Shown here piece after piece: positions 31,735-41,206 of a DNA stretch of 64,000 nucleotides (its first letter is position 1; the number at the start of each line of letters is the position of its first letter). The translations under genes and the position numbers were made by a program. The stretch comes from a virus. Its lineage: Duplodnaviria > Caudoviricetes. The notes beneath the pieces are model-generated. The model was given only the letters and a program-made list of their open reading frames with translations, was not told where the DNA came from and did not search any database. The stretch spans positions 84,118 to 148,117 of the IMG/VR virus record IMGVR_UViG_3300021426_000004; one strand, written 5' to 3'.

Positions 31735-32244
31735 ATGAATAATGTAAAGTATGTAGCATCATGGAGACCAGAATCTGAAAAGTATTATACTGCTGATGCG
31801 CAGAAAGTTGCAGATGAAATTTTCGCTCTTGGAAAGAATCCTGATACAAAGGAAATTCTCGATATGGCAAGGAACGAAAATACTGAAATTCACAAAATTA
31901 TTGATTGGGATGATAATTCAGCTGCTGAAAAATACAGATTGGAACAAGTACGTCATATTCAGAGAGACTTGCAAATAGTTGAAATTGGTCTCAACAAAAA
32001 GGAACCAACTAAGAAATTGGAAGTTCCTGTTCGTATGTTTTATCATTTGCATGGCGAAACTGGCTATCGCCCTACTCCTTTGATAATTCAAGACGAAGAT
32101 TTGCATAAGAAATTACTTCGCACAGCAAAGCTTGAATTGGATTCATATTTAAAGAAATATGCAATTTTAACAGAAATGCATCCTTTGATTGAAGCAATTA
32201 ATAGTAAGCTCATCGAGCTGAAAATTTTTGATGAAGTAAGTTAA
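31735..32244 (+). CDS. Partner gene upstream of the pentamer RNA array
   Basis: 169 aa, AAGGAGGTG RBS; DAQKVADE...AR.E..EIHKIIDWDDNSAAEKYRLEQVR; stop is 6 nt before the array. Confidence 0.8.
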   Translation: MNNVKYVASWRPESEKYYTADAQKVADEIFALGKNPDTKEILDMARNENTEIHKIIDWDDNSAAEKYRLEQVRHIQRDLQIVEIGLNKKEPTKKLEVPVRMFYHLHGETGYRPTPLIIQDEDLHKKLLRTAKLELDSYLKKYAILTEMHPLIEAINSKLIELKIFDEVS

Positions 32245-32250
32245 AATATA

Positions 32251-32932
32251 CCTGTCGGTCTGATTAAGGATGCAATGCATCCTAAAATAGCAAAGTGCAT
32301 CATAACTGAACACAAGTTACGATAGGACATAATAGCACAAAACATTGCATCTTTACTCAGGCCGACAGGCTAACAATAGATCATAACAGTACAACATAGA
32401 TTACTATAACTCATTTTAATACACAATTGTGCCAACTCTGCGGTTGGCATAATTGGAGACTTGTTCTCCGTAGATTAGGATAGGATAGGATAATTTATGA
32501 AATCTTTGCATGGAATAGAACATTACAGTATAAAACAAGTCTTCAATTGTGCTAATCGCACAAAGCATAATACAGGATATTCAAGAATAATACATGACGG
32601 CGTAGGACACAATAATACTACCAATCCATTTGTGTGATTGGTACAATAAGTGGCTTATCAGTCCTAAGATAACATATCGTATTTTAACACATCATAATAT
32701 AGAACATTATTGAAATAAGCTTCTTATTGTGCCAGTGGCACAAATATACAATTGCATAGCCAATAATTGAATAGAACAGGATACATTATTATAAAATACT
32801 ATAACATTAATTGAGTAATTGGTATACTAAGAAGTCTATGACTTCTTAAGTATAGAACATATCGCTCTATAATAGAATATTTCTCTATAGCATAAAATAA
32901 AACACGAATAGACTTCTTGGTGTGCCAATTGC
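32251..32932 (+). ncRNA. Array of seven 5-nt-periodic (AYA-NN) tracts held by long stems; candidate guide-RNA array
   Basis: Near-invariant A every 5 nt; 19-27 bp stems whose deviations are mostly G-U, e.g. 32439-32465/32534-32560 and 32815-32839/32908-32932. Confidence 0.85.
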
Positions 32933-32980
32933 GTAAAGAAAAGATTTAAACAAATAATAAAGATTAATAAGGAGATTATT

Positions 32981-33637
32981 ATGCCGACTAAAGCTAAAGA
33001 AAATGCAAATCTGATTGATATTGAAGCTAAGATTAAAAGGATGCTTGTTACCATTGAAGGTGAAGGCGATCTGATTCTTAATAAAATGAACGCTCGCAAT
33101 GAACGTGCACTGACTGCAGATGATCGTAAGAGCATTAAAGAAGTACCTAATTTCTGGGAAGATGTTATTACTGCAATTCATTGGCGCGATCCTCTTCCTG
33201 TAAAAGACACATATACGGAATGCAATGAAGAACTTATGCATAGTCTACTCAAAGATAACGCTCCGTCTTTAAGTGCGTTTGCGTTGAAAAGAAGTTTCTG
33301 TGATGCTGTTGTTCGTAATGAAATTGATAACTATAAAACAAAATTCGAAAATGCAATTAATGTTACATCTGAAAATGGAAGAGAACTTATTCCTATTAAG
33401 TTTGCAGGTTGGGAGGCCGAAAAGAGGCTTATGAGTCCTAAGCGTGGTAAGCCGATTAATGTTGTTCTGAATCATTTCCATAACTGGTCTGCAAAATTTA
33501 TGGTAACTTATCTGGATCATGTTTATAGTCGAGATGAGATTCTGAATATTATTAATCTTGCAGGATTCGGCCTTGGAATTGGCAGTGGTCGGACAAGCGG
33601 TTATGGTCGTTATCATATTACAAATGTTGAAGTGTAA
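32981..33637 (+). CDS. Stand-alone Cas7/RAMP-like RNA-binding protein
   Basis: VTIEGEGDLILNK first strand, LSAFALKRSFCDA helix, and C-terminal G-loop GLGIGSGRTSGYGRY typical of RAMP proteins. Confidence 0.8.
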   Translation: MPTKAKENANLIDIEAKIKRMLVTIEGEGDLILNKMNARNERALTADDRKSIKEVPNFWEDVITAIHWRDPLPVKDTYTECNEELMHSLLKDNAPSLSAFALKRSFCDAVVRNEIDNYKTKFENAINVTSENGRELIPIKFAGWEAEKRLMSPKRGKPINVVLNHFHNWSAKFMVTYLDHVYSRDEILNIINLAGFGLGIGSGRTSGYGRYHITNVEV

Positions 33638-33927
33638 TATTTTAATTATTGTATGAAAGTGTTTATATCCGGTGCTACAGCGGTTAATCTGTAGTATTTA
33701 TCGAGGATGTAGTGTAACGGTAACATAAAGGATTGTCGTTACGAAGAAGCAAAATGCCGGTTTATATATATATATATGTTTTACCGGCTTTAAACCGAAC
33801 GCCAGAGAGAGTCTGCCATCCTCTCTATCTACGGAGAACGTTATCCGGAAGGCGAGAAGACATGCGGCAGGGCAGAATGTAAGACGTGTCAGCCAGGTTT
33901 ACACACAATGCGGTTTACTGGCGTAAC

Positions 33928-36210: not shown

Positions 36211-36819
36211 ATGGTAAAGGTTTATGTGACTACGACTGGTGGACGGAAGAGTGATCTGTTTGACGAAGGCACGACGCTGCGTGAAGTGTTTGATGCATTT
36301 GATATCGACTATTCCGTTGCGACAAACACTATCGACGGTACAAGGATTGATCCTGCCGGGATGGACAAGTCTCTTCGTGACTGGGGAGTGAAGGATGAGT
36401 GCCGTATGTCCTCTATTGTTAAGATCGACAATGCGGCTCATATCGACATTTCCGGTGGTTCTGCTGTCCTGGTATCTGATGTCTCCAGGGAAGATTGGGA
36501 ACGTGTTGAGAAGTATGCGCCTGAAATGCTGAAGATGATTGACGATGAAGGTAACGCAGTCTTCAAGGTAAAGATTGGCTGCGGAGGAGGATCTGTTAAT
36601 AAGTATGGTGTGTGCTTCGGTTCTCATACGAATGAAGGCGGCAAGGCGACCGTTACTGTGATTCTGGATTATGAAGTTGAAGATAAGATTGCCGCTGTGA
36701 AGGATGTTATGGGTTCCGCTCTGCTGGATCTGAACGAGATCGAGAAGGAACTGCCGACTGTGCTGAAGGATATTGCTGACAAAGAAGCGGAGATTAACAA
36801 GCTTATTACGCTGAAGTAA
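36211..36819 (+). CDS. Ubiquitin-like (beta-grasp) domain with C-terminal extension
   Basis: First ~75 aa (VKVYVTT...TTLREVF...DKSLRDWGV...IVKIDNA) resemble Ubl; leads the E2/JAB/E1 operon. Confidence 0.65.
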   Translation: MVKVYVTTTGGRKSDLFDEGTTLREVFDAFDIDYSVATNTIDGTRIDPAGMDKSLRDWGVKDECRMSSIVKIDNAAHIDISGGSAVLVSDVSREDWERVEKYAPEMLKMIDDEGNAVFKVKIGCGGGSVNKYGVCFGSHTNEGGKATVTVILDYEVEDKIAAVKDVMGSALLDLNEIEKELPTVLKDIADKEAEINKLITLK

Positions 36820-36895
36820 TCTCCAAAACTAAAGACAACAAGGGGCTGGAACGATTATGATCCAGCCCCTTTTTTAACTAAGGAGATTAAAAAAT

Positions 36896-38338
36896 ATGTT
36901 TCGTGATTTACTTAATAATCCCATCGATCCCATCCCGATTGATTATATCAATACGCTGAGCAGACCGACAAAAGAAGTTGATATGACGTTAACTCATATC
37001 GGTATTGCCATGCTTCGGCCGAGAATTGAAAATTATACTGGCATCACTGGATGCTATCAAACTCTTTCAGAGGAATCAGCTTGTGTAAACGATTTTCTGA
37101 CTAATCAGTATCCGAAACTCGATAATGCACCAATGCTGTGTTATTATGTTTACAGGAATAAAAATGCTGATGGCGCTTCTGAAAAGCTGCTTAAAGAAAG
37201 TGGTTTTGAACTTAAGGAAAACATTTCCACGCTTATGGCTACAAAAGGAAATGTGAAATGTATTGCTGCGTATCATCCTGTAAAGAACTGCGCCGCCTTA
37301 TTTGTGAATTCTAACGATATTCGTTTCTATCATATGTTAATCTCGTTTGTTTCTCTGCTTTGGCCTAGCCTGTTCAAAGATAAACCTTTAACAGAACAGG
37401 ATTATAACATTGTCAAGGCTCTTGGGAAAACCGACAAGAACACTTTTATCCAGCAAATTCAGACAAGCATCGCACCTTACATTGTTGAATTCAGGAAGAT
37501 GATGCTTGCTACACTGCTTAAGAATATTCATCAGACTAAAATCGAAAGCGCAAAGCATGATGTAGCAGGACAGCGTCAGTATGTTGAAAAGGTAGCAAAC
37601 GATTATGATGAAGCTATGAAACGGCTGAAAACCCTCATTGTAACTTATGAAGGACTGAAAGCAACTGAATCTTTCGATGAGGTTGAGGAAGATTTGATTG
37701 AATATCTCTCTACCAAGAAAGAGCTGCATAATCTTAGTGTTGTAGGTCAGGAGATTACTTTCAGCGTTGCAACATTACTGAATAATTACAATGCAGATGC
37801 GTGGAGGATATTCTCTGAACGTGGTTCTATTTATGACGGAGAATATGGTCCGGAAGCGAATCCTTCAAACATTCAGCTTCTTGATGTATTCAAAGATAAA
37901 ACGAATCGCAAGATCTTCCTTGATAATGTGTTCTCTGAATCGCCTGACTTTGCGATTAAGATCGCTGGTAATTACAGGCTTGATCTTTATGGATGCAATG
38001 TAAGGAGCGAAAGAGGATATAATTATATTGCCGCAGATCCTGTTTATACTTCATATATTCCTAATCCGCATCTTAAGATTTTCTCGTGTCTTGGCGGTTA
38101 TGAAACAAGGATTAATCGTGCGCTTCGTGATCGTAATTATGTTGCGGCTGTTGAACTTTGCTGTACCTCTGCAGGTTCTGTAGATCTTGATGAAACTGCA
38201 CAGACATTTCGTCCGTTCCTTGGATGGATTCTGACAAGCCGTGAAAAGATTATGCACAGGCGGGATGGTGTAGATATGACACCAGAAGAAGCGCTGATTT
38301 GGCTGATTGATAAGGAGAAGAAGAATGAAACCAATTAA
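36896..38338 (+). CDS. Coiled-coil protein with putative E2-like C-terminal domain
   Basis: PNPHLKIFSCLGGY resembles the bacterial E2 PH...CLG signature; lies between Ubl and JAB. Confidence 0.55.
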   Translation: MFRDLLNNPIDPIPIDYINTLSRPTKEVDMTLTHIGIAMLRPRIENYTGITGCYQTLSEESACVNDFLTNQYPKLDNAPMLCYYVYRNKNADGASEKLLKESGFELKENISTLMATKGNVKCIAAYHPVKNCAALFVNSNDIRFYHMLISFVSLLWPSLFKDKPLTEQDYNIVKALGKTDKNTFIQQIQTSIAPYIVEFRKMMLATLLKNIHQTKIESAKHDVAGQRQYVEKVANDYDEAMKRLKTLIVTYEGLKATESFDEVEEDLIEYLSTKKELHNLSVVGQEITFSVATLLNNYNADAWRIFSERGSIYDGEYGPEANPSNIQLLDVFKDKTNRKIFLDNVFSESPDFAIKIAGNYRLDLYGCNVRSERGYNYIAADPVYTSYIPNPHLKIFSCLGGYETRINRALRDRNYVAAVELCCTSAGSVDLDETAQTFRPFLGWILTSREKIMHRRDGVDMTPEEALIWLIDKEKKNETN

Positions 38339-39104
38339 AATTACAGAAGAACTGGAAGAAAAGATTCTTTCAGACTTTATTCAGAAATTTCAGAAAGAAT
38401 GGACTCAGTTTAAAGAGAATATGAACGAGACAAAGTTCAACTTCTCTGTTCAGATGTCACAGAAAGCGAAAGAGAAGATTACTGTTCGTTATTCTCAATC
38501 TGCATATCTTAAAATGCAGGCACTTGTAGAGAATTTCGACACAGAAGTCGGCTGGTATGGATTTGTTAAACGTTTGGATGAAAACACATATTATGTTTAT
38601 GATGTAAAAGTCTGTAAGCAATATGTTACAAGCGGAAAGGTTGATACAGAAGATGAAGATACGCTGAAGTTCTTTGATTCTTTGACGGATGAAGAAATTG
38701 AGGATATGCATTTTCAGGCGCATTCTCATGTAAATATGTCTACAATGCCGTCCGGAACCGATCTTCAGAATCAGTCCGATGTTGTCAGAAATATGGGCAA
38801 CAAAGGATTCTATTTGTTCCAGATCTGGAATAAGCGAGGAGATATAAACAGTTTCCTGTATAACCTTGATGAAAACCTTTTCTATGATAGGAATGATATT
38901 GTTACTGAAATTGAAGGACTTGATGAGTTTATCCTATCTGTAGATGATCTGGTTATAGAACAAAAGACATATCCGTATCAATATTCTCCTTATCCTGTTC
39001 CCGTAAATCAAAAAGAGAAGACAACTAAAAAAAACGAAGAAAAAAGTCCGTATCTAAATGATTATTGGGATGGATGCAATTATAACGAAAGGTGGGATTG
39101 GTAA
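38325..39104 (+). CDS. JAB/JAMM metallopeptidase
   Basis: EVGW...HSHVNMSTMPSGTD matches the JAMM E-x-HSH-x7-S-x2-D motif. Confidence 0.88.
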   Translation: MKPIKITEELEEKILSDFIQKFQKEWTQFKENMNETKFNFSVQMSQKAKEKITVRYSQSAYLKMQALVENFDTEVGWYGFVKRLDENTYYVYDVKVCKQYVTSGKVDTEDEDTLKFFDSLTDEEIEDMHFQAHSHVNMSTMPSGTDLQNQSDVVRNMGNKGFYLFQIWNKRGDINSFLYNLDENLFYDRNDIVTEIEGLDEFILSVDDLVIEQKTYPYQYSPYPVPVNQKEKTTKKNEEKSPYLNDYWDGCNYNERWDW

Positions 39105-39776
39105 TTGAATCTTACAAAAAGTGCAGAGTTTTTCAATCCTGAAAGCGTTAAAGAAACAATTAACTTGATTGGATGTGGTTCTGTTGGATCTGCCGTTGCT
39201 GAGCTTCTTGCAAGGTTCGGACTGACTCGTGTCAATCTTTATGATTTTGACACGGTAGAAGAGCACAATCTTTCCAATCAGATGTTCACAACGAAGAATC
39301 TTTATAAACCTAAGCTCGAAGGTGTTTATGACAGATGGACTGAAATCAACCCTGAAGCAGCTAAGAACATCAAGCTATTTGGGGATGGCTGGGACGGCCA
39401 GAAACTTTCTGGATATGTATTCCTTTGCGTAGATAATATCGAATTACGCAAACGAATCGTTGAAGAAAATAAGTATAACATCAACATAAAGGCTATGTTT
39501 GATTTTAGGACGGCTCTTGTTTCAGCGCAGCATTATGCGGCAGACTGGAGCAAGGACGAAGACATTGCTGCATTTCTTGATACGATGGACTTTACCCACG
39601 CTGAAGCAGAAAAGAATGTTCCAGTAAGTGCTTGTAAGGTATCTTTGTGCGTAATGCCAACCGTATGGAGTGTGGCAATGGCCGGAGTTGTGAACTTCGT
39701 TAATTTCGTAAAAGAAGGAAAACTGGAAAAGGCAATGATTCTTAAGCCTTTTGATTTCGAAACTTTAATTCTGTGA
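39105..39776 (+). CDS. ThiF/E1-like adenylating enzyme
   Basis: IGCGSVGS, DFDTVEEHNLSNQ, CVDN...R and a candidate catalytic Cys in VSAC. Confidence 0.92.
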   Translation: MNLTKSAEFFNPESVKETINLIGCGSVGSAVAELLARFGLTRVNLYDFDTVEEHNLSNQMFTTKNLYKPKLEGVYDRWTEINPEAAKNIKLFGDGWDGQKLSGYVFLCVDNIELRKRIVEENKYNINIKAMFDFRTALVSAQHYAADWSKDEDIAAFLDTMDFTHAEAEKNVPVSACKVSLCVMPTVWSVAMAGVVNFVNFVKEGKLEKAMILKPFDFETLIL

Positions 39777-40038
39777 TTCATAAAGACCAAAAATGTTCAA
39801 TCATTAGCAGTTTATGTTATAAGCTGAATCATTTTGCTCGGAGAAGAAGAAGAAGAGCCAGACCGACGCCTCCGCCGGTCTGGCTCTTGGGAAATTCAGG
39901 AAATAACAGTCAGAAAGATGAAGATCAATAAATAGAAACGGGTAAGACGACTGGAAATGGCCAAATAGCAGGGAAATTCACTTAAACATGCTGCAAGATC
40001 CGGACTATTTCCAGGTAAGACTGTAGAGAGTTTATGAA
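39777..40038 (+). ncRNA. Candidate retron-like ncRNA upstream of the RT
   Basis: Terminal IR TTCATAAA(G)/TTTATGAA; 13-bp hairpin 39853-39888; nested ACAGTC/GACTGT and CTGGAAAT/ATTTCCAG stems. Confidence 0.5.
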
Positions 40039-40057
40039 GCAACAGAAAGGATAACAA

Positions 40058-41206
40058 ATGATTTATATTACTTCACATCAGCATAGAAAACCAAGAACAA
40101 TAACATGGGAAGATGTCATTGCTGATAAAATTGTTTTTAATGACATGGCTAATGATGTTTCAAACTACACAGGCACAATAACAAGAAAACTCTCGGAAAT
40201 TGATTCAGCAATGTTAAAAAAGATTAACATAGACGGAATGATCCAATGGCTGGAATCGTATAATAATGAAAATGAGGAATTATTCAAAGCAAGAAGACAA
40301 GATCTTTACTCTTCATTTATGATCCCAAAAGCAACTGGAGGGTTTAGACGCATTGATAATCCTTGCGACAAACTACAAAACGCTTTAAGGAAATTAAGTA
40401 CATTTCTGACAGAAGACTGTGGACTTTTGTATCATACTGCAGCATTTGCGTATGTTAAAGGAAGAAGTATTGTAGATTGCTTGAGAAAACATCAGAGAAA
40501 TAACTCGAACTGGTTTCTTAAAACGGATTTCAGCGGCTTCTTTCCGAATACTACTTTGGAATTTACTATGAAAATGCTGAAAATGATATTTCCTTTATCT
40601 GAAATATGTAAAAGGAATGACGGTTATAAAGCGTTAAGAAAGGCTATAAGCTTAGGATTCCTGAACGGTGGATTACCCCAAGGAACGGTATTGTCGCCTA
40701 CACTTACAAACATAATTTGTATTCCTATTGATTATCGTCTGTTTAATAGATTTTCTGATATGAAAATTGTGTACACAAGATATGCAGATGATATGCATAT
40801 TTCAGCAGAAAGCAAATTTCCAAAAGAGAAAGCAATTCAAATAATCAATGAAACGCTTGAAAAGTTTGGAGCTCCTTGGGAGCTGAAACCTGAAAAGACG
40901 CATTATGGTAACAGAAAGGGTAAGAACTGGTGCCTTGGATTACTGATCAATGCACAAAATAATATCAGCGTAGGAGATAAGAAGAAGAAATATTTCCAGG
41001 CAGCGCTTAATTCGTTTATTCTGGATACCAAGAATAATAAGCTGTGGAACATGGAAGATGTTGTACATCTGAATGGTTTGCTGTCTTATTACAAGATGGT
41101 TGAAAAAGAATACTTTATGAAGACTATTGAAAAATATAACAAAAAGTATTCAGTTGATGTACACGAAATGTTTAAAAGTTATATGAACGGTAGTTTAGCA
41201 GCATAA
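40058..41206 (+). CDS. Retron-like reverse transcriptase
   Basis: IPKATGGFRRID, AFAYVKGRS, KTDFSGFF, LPQGTVLSP, YTRYADD, and WCLGL in place of VTGL; no maturase or endonuclease domain. Confidence 0.9.
   Translation: MIYITSHQHRKPRTITWEDVIADKIVFNDMANDVSNYTGTITRKLSEIDSAMLKKINIDGMIQWLESYNNENEELFKARRQDLYSSFMIPKATGGFRRIDNPCDKLQNALRKLSTFLTEDCGLLYHTAAFAYVKGRSIVDCLRKHQRNNSNWFLKTDFSGFFPNTTLEFTMKMLKMIFPLSEICKRNDGYKALRKAISLGFLNGGLPQGTVLSPTLTNIICIPIDYRLFNRFSDMKIVYTRYADDMHISAESKFPKEKAIQIINETLEKFGAPWELKPEKTHYGNRKGKNWCLGLLINAQNNISVGDKKKKYFQAALNSFILDTKNNKLWNMEDVVHLNGLLSYYKMVEKEYFMKTIEKYNKKYSVDVHEMFKSYMNGSLAA

What the first reader, a model, noticed from the sequence alone, without database searches (positions are those of the whole stretch)
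31735..33637. Candidate non-CRISPR RNA-guided system: Cas7/RAMP-like gene, pentamer-coded RNA array and partner gene
Seen: a 169-aa gene, a ~680-nt non-coding array and a 218-aa RAMP-like gene (G-loop GLGIGSGRTSGYGRY) lie in tandem, with no cas1/2/3/5/6 and no CRISPR repeats in the window. The array has seven tracts (about 32276-32345, 32370-32424, 32469-32538, 32561-32625, 32663-32712, 32745-32809, 32846-32905) of 10-14 pentamers each. Each pentamer has a nearly invariant A, consensus AYA followed by two variable bases (tract 1: tgcAt cctAa aatAg caaAg tgcAt catAa ctgAa cacAa gttAc gatAg gacAt aatAg cacAa aacAt). Known: Cas7 proteins polymerise along guide RNA with a fixed nucleotide step. 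Inference: one subunit binds each pentamer, gripping AYA and displaying NN, giving programmable guides against rival phages or host genes. From memory, recently reported phage VIPR-type systems use GGY/NN pentamers; that recollection needs checking, and this would be an AYA variant.
Basis: partly seen in the sequence, partly recalled or inferred. Interest (0 to 1): 0.97.

Follow-up and report, generated by a model that had tools for sequence, protein, structure and literature searches.

The report
Phage VIPR system with AYA repeats
A complete 148-kb gut or rumen phage carries a relative of the recently described VIPR RNA-guided DNA-silencing system, but its guide RNAs are built from AYA/NN five-base units instead of the published GGY/NN and are framed by long hairpin stems, with matching changes in the protein residues that read the fixed bases.

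Summary
Between a 169-aa gene and a 218-aa gene lie 736 nt holding seven tracts of 10-14 pentamers. Their logo is N-A(70%)-Y(90%)-A(89%)-N, and this is the only such place in the 148-kb phage genome.

The 218-aa protein has a single-domain RAMP fold. By profile comparison (99.6%, E 1e-24) it is a full-length homologue of the Vipr protein of phage SUSP1, so this is a VIPR system (preprints of 2026).

It differs from published VIPRs in three ways:
- The fixed trinucleotide is AYA, not GGY.
- Guides are framed by 23-31 bp stems.
- The gene order is vap-like, array, vipr.

Across 160 related viral loci, proteins with H/R/E/W at the guanine-reading positions sit beside GGY arrays. Proteins with N/L/S/G sit beside AYA arrays, with no exception.

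In close relatives the NN positions vary about three to five times more than the two A positions and the stems (the Y position less so). Their dinucleotide spectrum matches codon positions 1-2 (r 0.81-0.85), as expected for the published skip-one-base reading of coding targets.

No natural target was found, and expression and binding are untested. The accessory protein has no recognisable fold.

Verdict: a new variant of a known kind.

The parts
31735..32244 (+). Accessory (vap-like) gene, 169 aa, function unknown
   Evidence: A homologue lies on the same strand beside the array in 95 of 99 related loci and in 72 of 80 loci of the GGY sister clade. There is no Pfam, PADLOC or PDB match and no similarity to SUSP1 Vap1. 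The AF2 model has pLDDT 86; only its C-terminal helical hairpin finds generic matches.
32245..32980 (+). vrRNA-like array: seven AYA/NN pentamer tracts separated by stem-forming spacers
   Evidence: It is unique in the genome. The RNA fold has z = -8.5. There is no Rfam family. The same kind of array occurs in 78 of 80 relatives.
32251..32369 (+). Stem-loop unit 1: arms 32251-32277 and 32343-32369 (27 nt, 89% complementary) enclosing tract 1
32370..32424 (+). Linker tract 2 (11 pentamers), followed by a small hairpin at 32424-32455
32439..32560 (+). Stem-loop unit 2: arms 32439-32465 and 32534-32560 (27 nt, 85%) enclosing tract 3
32561..32625 (+). Linker tract 4 (13 pentamers). An alternative 19-nt stem, 32546-32564 with 32629-32647, can also enclose it.
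32628..32745 (+). Stem-loop unit 3: arms 32628-32658 and 32715-32745 (31 nt, 81%) enclosing tract 5
32745..32809 (+). Linker tract 6 (13 pentamers)
32817..32930 (+). Stem-loop unit 4: arms 32817-32839 and 32908-32930 (23 nt, 87%) enclosing tract 7. The first bases of the loop can pair with the 5' arm instead (9-bp local hairpin).
32981..33637 (+). vipr-like gene, 218 aa: single-RRM RAMP with a G-loop at residues 197-211; AAGGAG lies 5 nt before the ATG
   Evidence: The AF2 model has pLDDT 94. The fold is RAMP. hhalign against the SUSP1 Vipr family gives 99.6%, E 1.1e-24, over 170 columns. The family has 2030 relatives at E <= 1e-3.

Best explanation
This is a VIPR (Viral Interference Programmable Repeat) system of a phage, belonging to a clade that has changed its RNA code.

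Shown here:
- The 218-aa protein is a full-length homologue of Vipr.
- The array beside it consists of five-base units with three fixed bases (A-Y-A) and two hypervariable bases.
- The protein residues that read the two guanines of GGY in the published structure are replaced together with the RNA motif.

Inferred:
- The + strand of 32245-32980 is transcribed.
- The 23-31 bp stems are cut, most simply by a host double-strand-specific RNase such as RNase III. This would release up to seven guides: four loop tracts and three linker tracts.
- One protomer binds each pentamer. It holds AYA and presents NN, so that the filament reads double-stranded DNA as NN-x-NN-x, with the skipped base at the codon wobble position.
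- Binding silences protein-coding genes of competing mobile elements.
- The conserved 169-aa partner assists in an unknown way.
For: Homology and fold:
- Profile-profile match to the SUSP1 Vipr family: 99.6%, E 1.1e-24, nearly full length.
- The RAMP fold ranks first, with all top hits Csm3/Cmr/Cas7.
- The Pfam RAMPs model matches only below its cut-off.

Conserved module:
- vap-like gene, array and vipr occur together in 95 of 99 loci.
- AYA tracts lie on the gene's strand just upstream in 78 of 80 loci and never on the other strand.

Protein-RNA co-variation:
- The positions equivalent to SUSP1 H17, R138, D177, W178 and R179 read H-R-E-W-R in 80 sister-clade loci. 72 of these have GGY arrays and none has AYA.
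- The same positions read N-[LIMQ]-S-G-R in 80 loci of this clade. 78 of these have AYA arrays and none has GGY.
- The published roles of these residues are in 10.64898/2026.04.26.720927.

Guide-like evolution:
- In arrays 77-100% identical, column entropy is 0.62-0.63 bits at NN. It is 0.12-0.40 at the fixed bases and 0.155 in the stems.
- Loops change by multiples of 5 nt while the stems stay.

Codon signature:
- NN frequencies correlate with codon positions 1-2: r 0.85 for relatives and 0.81 for the window. All other frames and orientations give r <= 0.30.
- The correlation of odds after removing base composition is 0.60.
- The canonical GGY sister clade, used as a positive control, gives 0.72-0.82.

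Structure and self-targeting:
- The RNA fold has z = -8.5, and stems of 22-37 bp around 38-118 nt loops are found in all 20 relatives folded.
- There is no self-target in the phage genome under any skip rule, as published for VIPR.
Against: - No natural target was found in the own genome, 0.65 Mb of related loci, IMG/VR (five patterns), JGI metagenomes (one pattern), or 126 Clostridia genomes.
- Transcription, processing and binding are untested. The promoter and terminator scans are not above chance.
- The residue-to-motif correlation rests on two clades, that is one evolutionary event.
- A 23-31 bp stem that ties the two ends of a tract together cannot coexist with an extended filament, so a processing or unwinding step must be assumed.
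- The pyrimidine sits in the middle of the fixed triplet, not at its end as in GGY, so the register relative to the published structure is unknown.
Confidence: 0.85

Rival explanations
1. It is a Vipr-homologous RNA-guided complex, but its job differs from the published one. It may target RNA rather than DNA, or regulate host or own genes rather than rival elements, or follow a skip rule other than one base.
For: - No DNA target was found under the 1-nt rule.
- The guides look sense-oriented only: r with reverse-complemented codon positions 1-2 is about 0. Published targets lie on both strands.
- Published Vipr can also pair with RNA targets in vitro.
Against: - The codon 1-2 signature, together with the position-2-to-next-position-1 signature (r 0.81), is what the NN-x reading predicts.
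- Sense-oriented guides could not pair with the mRNA of the genes they resemble.
- The canonical sister clade shows the same signature.
Confidence: 0.1
2. The array is not a guide. It is a structured RNA or DNA element (a scaffold, an origin or iteron region, or a decoy), and the RAMP protein merely processes or binds it, as Cas6 does.
For: - The large stems resemble processing or binding sites.
- PADLOC gives a weak Cas6 match (E 0.028).
- The Cas6 fold also appears among the matches, at Z 6-7.6.
Against: - Homology is to Vipr over the full length, not to Cas6.
- The tracts are the variable part and the stems the conserved part.
- The NN positions carry a coding-sequence signature, which a scaffold has no reason to have.
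- The periodic motif is strand-specific in 78 of 80 loci.
Confidence: 0.04
3. The periodicity is a chance or compositional effect of A-rich intergenic DNA.
For: The region is 39% A.
Against: - 51 exact AYA units in phase against 6.1 expected.
- The array is the genome-wide maximum.
- The pattern is conserved in relatives whose sequences have diverged.
Confidence: 0.01

Closest known systems
Type II VIPR of Escherichia phage SUSP1 and the Pseudomonas fulva prophage (bioRxiv 10.64898/2026.04.26.720920 and .720927)
   Same: - A small single-RRM RAMP protein, homologous over its full length.
- A phage-borne minimal locus with one accessory gene and no cas genes.
- Guides made of 10-14 five-base units with three fixed and two variable bases.
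- The Arg that stacks on the pyrimidine (R179) is kept as R204.
   Different: - The fixed bases are A-Y-A, not G-G-Y.
- H17, R138, D177 and W178 are replaced by N34, L163, S202 and G203.
- There is no 3' pseudoknot tail; 23-31 bp stems frame the tracts instead.
- All seven tracts lie between the accessory gene and vipr.
- The accessory protein is unrelated in sequence to Vap1.
GGY-type VIPR sister clade in gut and rumen phages, found here (L118-L197). By its appearance it may be the published 'staggered array' kind.
   Same: - The Vipr proteins are detectable by plain phmmer at 23-30% identity.
- The same vap-like partner gene is present in 72 of 80 loci.
- The habitats are the same.
- The NN positions show the same codon 1-2 signature.
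   Different: - The motif is GGY, with the H-R-E-W-R residue set.
- The tracts are continuous and lack long stems.
- The gene order is vipr, array, vap-like.
- The clade is separated from this one by a branch with 97% support.
Non-canonical VIPR-like clusters (GAC, CAC, WGT, TGH /NN) reported from a genomic language model (bioRxiv 10.64898/2026.10.21.760802)
   Same: Five-base units with a non-GGY fixed triplet lie next to a Vipr-like fold.
   Different: AYA, ACA and ATA are not named in that text. Its figure S10 cannot be read here, so overlap cannot be excluded. That paper gives no residue-level or stem-architecture analysis.
Class 1 CRISPR backbone subunits (Csm3, Cmr4, Cas7)
   Same: They share the RAMP fold with G-loop and thumb (Z 9-12). 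They polymerise on a guide with a fixed step (established knowledge).
   Different: Here there is no CRISPR array, no Cas1 and no other cas genes. The step is 5 nt with two bases read, not 6 nt with five. Sequence similarity to the Pfam RAMPs model is below its cut-off.

Membership tests
VIPR | Protein homologous to Vipr | tested here: met
   hhalign of the family profile A1 against the SUSP1 Vipr family A5 gives 99.6%, E 1.1e-24, over 170 columns. Against the single SUSP1 sequence it gives 98.3%.
VIPR | Minimal RAMP fold: one RRM, G-loop, thumb and helical insertion, with no second RRM | tested here: met
   The AF2 model has pLDDT 94 for 218 aa and forms one domain. The RAMP matches span residues 14-218. 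Direct superposition on a Vipr structure was not possible, because none is in the PDB copy and the tools refuse proteins from phage records.
VIPR | Minimal locus (vipr plus one accessory gene), no cas genes, no CRISPR array, mostly viral | tested here: met
   The host record is a complete 148-kb phage with terminal repeats.
VIPR | Adjacent non-coding tandem 5-nt units with three conserved and two hypervariable positions | tested here: met
   
VIPR | Fixed motif GGY or a published related consensus (NNNGG, YNNNG, NNNNG) | tested here: not met
   The logo is A-Y-A with G at 0-6% in the fixed positions.
VIPR | Published guide boundaries: 3' tail with pseudoknot, hammerhead ribozymes, or staggered 1-nt overlaps | tested here: not met
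   There is no Rfam hit, including hammerheads. Long stems frame the tracts instead.
VIPR | Targets read as NN-x (one skipped base, usually the wobble position) | tested here: inconclusive
   The codon 1-2 signature supports it, but no target was found.
VIPR | vrRNAs are expressed and co-purify with the protein; reprogramming NN redirects repression | not testable with these tools
   This needs experiments.
CRISPR-Cas class 1 | CRISPR repeat-spacer array and adaptation or effector cas genes | tested here: not met
   There is no Cas1, no second RAMP, and no recurring 14-mers at CRISPR spacing in the 148-kb genome.

The most novel reading that the evidence does not exclude
A large clade of gut and rumen phage Vipr proteins (about 2000 sequences) has switched its RNA handle from GGY to AYA by replacing four base-reading residues. 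It also packages several guides in one transcript as loops and linkers between long stems cut by a host double-strand RNase. This would be a natural second, orthogonal VIPR code that still reads coding DNA two bases per codon.
Probability: 0.5. Interest if true: 0.75.

Novelty: new variant of a known kind. Interest (0 to 1): 0.62.

Why it matters
VIPR is a newly described way of reading DNA with RNA, and only G-containing handles have been studied.

- **Recognition of the fixed bases.** A natural clade has a different fixed triplet together with concerted changes at exactly the residues that hold the guanines in the cryo-EM structure. This is a ready-made test of how the protein recognises the fixed bases.
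- **Orthogonal pair.** It suggests protein-RNA pairs that could work side by side without cross-talk.
- **Guide maturation.** The stem-framed multi-guide array points to a third way of maturing guides, besides ribozymes and tails.
- **Habitat.** The clade shows that VIPR-type systems are common in phages of gut and rumen Clostridia.

Tried and rejected
**Target searches, all negative or at chance level**
- Own genome under skip 0-3: scores equal those of order-shuffled guides.
- 279 guides from the window and relatives against 0.65 Mb of loci plus the genome. The best skip-1 hits (16/16 for a short guide, 18/20, 19/22) are within chance for that many trials.
- IMG/VR exact patterns for tracts 1, 5, 2 and 6, and for a guide shared by nine relatives. 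There were 0-6 hits each, and none extended into the untested NN units.
- JGI metagenomes for tract 4: six hits, all chance. Their shared peptide is forced by the pattern.
- Five MAGs that carry relatives, and 121 genomes of the family of the closest one, for tract 1 with up to 3 mismatches: none.

**Other dead ends**
- tblastn against 50,697 phage records: no match.
- phmmer against PDB sequences: nothing.
- Accessory protein: no Pfam, PADLOC, PDB-sequence or informative fold match. The ESM Atlas gave only unnamed viral clusters, plus one automatic 'DUF4494' name that Pfam scans did not reproduce.
- A period-5 Fourier power on the A indicator was a poor statistic, because A sits at two positions of the unit. 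It was replaced by lag-5 identity.
- My first tract finder was too strict for the degenerate units.

- Proteins known only from the SUSP1 record cannot be folded here.

Full report
**What is there**

On the + strand, a 169-aa ORF (31735-32244) is followed by 736 nt without a credible ORF. Then comes a 218-aa ORF (32981-33637) with AAGGAG 5 nt before its ATG. The window is the last 64 kb of a complete 148,117-bp phage record with direct terminal repeats. That record encodes portal, terminase, primase-helicase, DNA polymerase and six tRNAs.

**The periodic array is real**

- Base identity at lag 5 is 0.357, against 0.25 and 0.23 at lags 4 and 6, and it recurs at 10, 15, 20 and 25. This is 4.3 sd above shuffles.
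- The lag-5 excess is the largest of 737 windows across the genome.
The 87 pentamers give N, A 70%, C/T 90%, A 89%, N.
- Exact AYA occurs in 51 units against 6.1 expected.
- Nothing comparable exists elsewhere in the genome or on the other strand.

**The tracts are framed by stems**

- Four pairs of 23-31 nt arms, 81-89% complementary, enclose tracts 1, 3, 5 and 7. Tracts 2, 4 and 6 lie between these stem-loops.
- The RNA fold of the 736 nt has z = -8.5.
- A weaker stem can also enclose tract 4. In units 1 and 4 the first loop bases can pair with the 5' arm instead of the 3' arm.
- No Rfam family matches.

**The protein**

- Pfam sees only a sub-threshold RAMPs match, and PDB sequences give nothing.
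- An AF2 model built on 55 homologues has pLDDT 94.
- All of its best solved-structure matches are CRISPR RAMPs: Cmr-beta subunit Z 11.9, Csm subunits 9.4-11.3, Cas7-11 9.6, Cmr4 9.0, and type IV and type I Cas7 8-9.

**What is known about VIPR**

VIPR was reported in 2026. Its features are:
- A roughly 20-kDa single-RRM RAMP (Vipr).
- An accessory gene (vap).
- vrRNAs of 9-16 GGY/NN units, which read double-stranded DNA as NN-x and silence competing mobile elements (10.64898/2026.04.26.720920).
- Cryo-EM shows one protomer per unit. In SUSP1 Vipr, G1 is read by H17 and D177, G2 by R138 and W178, and Y3 by R179 among others (10.64898/2026.04.26.720927).
- Alternative units reported by the discoverers all contain G.
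- A later preprint lists GAC, CAC, WGT and TGH units but does not name AYA in its text.

**Membership**

I located the SUSP1 locus: the 195-aa gene, the 146-aa vap1, and GGY tracts on both sides. The profile of the window's family matches the SUSP1 protein at 98.3%. It matches a profile of 29 SUSP1-family proteins at 99.6%, E 1.1e-24, over 170 columns. The protein is therefore a Vipr homologue.

In that alignment, H17, R138, D177 and W178 correspond to N34, L163, S202 and G203. R179 corresponds to R204.

**Relatives and co-variation**

- The family has 2030 members at E <= 1e-3, all from metagenomes.
- There are 222 IMG/VR loci and 19 contigs in MAGs, mostly Clostridia. The closest (71% identity) is in a rumen Ruminococcus MAG.
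- In 78 of 80 IMG/VR loci, AYA (mostly ACA) tracts lie just upstream on the same strand, framed by stems of 22-37 bp.
- Distant phmmer hits (23-30% identity) keep His, Arg and Glu-Trp at the guanine-reading positions. Eighty loci of that clade were fetched. A motif-blind scan of every other one (40 loci) found GGY or a compatible pattern, just downstream of the gene, in about 36 of 40.
- The cross-table has no exception. H-R-E-W-R goes with GGY (72 loci, 8 with no call). N-[LIMQ]-S-G-R goes with AYA (78 loci, 2 with no call).
- A quick tree puts the AYA-type proteins on one side of a branch with 97% support, and the GGY sister clade and the SUSP1 family on the other. That tree is a quick search with a midpoint root. 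It used 90 of the available rows, and the context of the 22 'mid' rows is unknown.
- The switch is thus one event, so the correlation is suggestive rather than statistical proof.

**Guide-like behaviour**

- In twelve arrays 77-100% identical, column entropy is 0.62 and 0.63 bits at the two N positions. It is 0.24, 0.40 and 0.12 at A, Y and A, and 0.155 in the stems.
- RNAalifold keeps all the stems, with five pairs showing compensatory change. The loops differ by insertions in multiples of five.
- The 16 NN dinucleotide frequencies correlate with codon positions 1-2 of phage genes: r 0.85 for 2226 units from relatives and 0.81 for the window's 84 units. All other frames and orientations give at most 0.30.
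- The signal survives removal of base composition (r 0.60). It extends to position 2 against the next position 1 (r 0.81).
- The GGY sister clade, for which the wobble-skip rule is published, gives the same pattern.
- This is indirect support for the NN-x reading of coding targets, with the guides in the sense orientation.

**What failed**

No natural target was found under any skip rule in any collection I could scan. The scans required exact matches over 8-10 units, so this is weak negative evidence.

**The accessory gene**

It travels with the array in both clades. It has no detectable relative of known function and no similarity to Vap1.

**Mechanism**

- *Shown:* homology, fold, the conserved three-part module, the unit logo, hypervariable NN, conserved stems, residue-motif co-variation, the codon-like NN spectrum, and the absence of cas genes.
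- *Inferred:* transcription of the + strand, cleavage of the stems by a host double-strand RNase, one protomer per pentamer, NN-x reading of DNA, and silencing of rival elements.

**Verdict**

The locus is a genuine VIPR-family system. It is not a new class, but it is a distinct variant in three respects: the RNA code, the guide architecture and the locus order.

Noticed in passing
L118-L197 (IMG/VR loci of the GGY sister clade), for example L170:3150-3445, L126:3190-3470 and L120:3175-3960: Canonical GGY/NN arrays of up to about 150 units lie between vipr and a homologue of the window's 169-aa gene. They are punctuated by recurring GGCAGG-like phase breaks and have no long stems. This may be the published 'staggered' array type.
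   Followed up: partly
L003:1469-1886, L049:2112-2253, L050:3666-3821, L059:3712-3726: Some relatives carry further AYA tracts downstream of vipr as well as upstream. The window has none downstream.
   Followed up: no
window 33638-33927: Between vipr and a tRNA cluster (Ala 33928, Pro 34098, Leu 34280) lies a 290-nt stretch with a (TA)7 run at about 33766-33779. It has no ORF and no Rfam match.
   Followed up: no
window 36211-41206: A run of co-oriented ORFs (202, 480, 265, 223 and 382 aa) lies downstream. Earlier notes of this scan read it as a Ubl-E2-JAB-E1 operon plus a reverse transcriptase. The 480-aa ORF had no PHROG match. The run was not examined further here.
   Followed up: no
window 32207-32247: A terminator-like hairpin with a T run sits at the very end of the 169-aa gene, and a weak -35/-10 match lies just before the first stem. 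Both are within chance for the region. They could mark a separate start for the array transcript.
   Followed up: partly
relatives' guides, for example L055/L062 at about 2869 against L063/L071 at about 2870: The guide nearest vipr is shared by nine loci. A three-locus variant differs only at two NN positions (AC to GC, TC to CC), as if it were tracking amino-acid changes in a target.
   Followed up: partly
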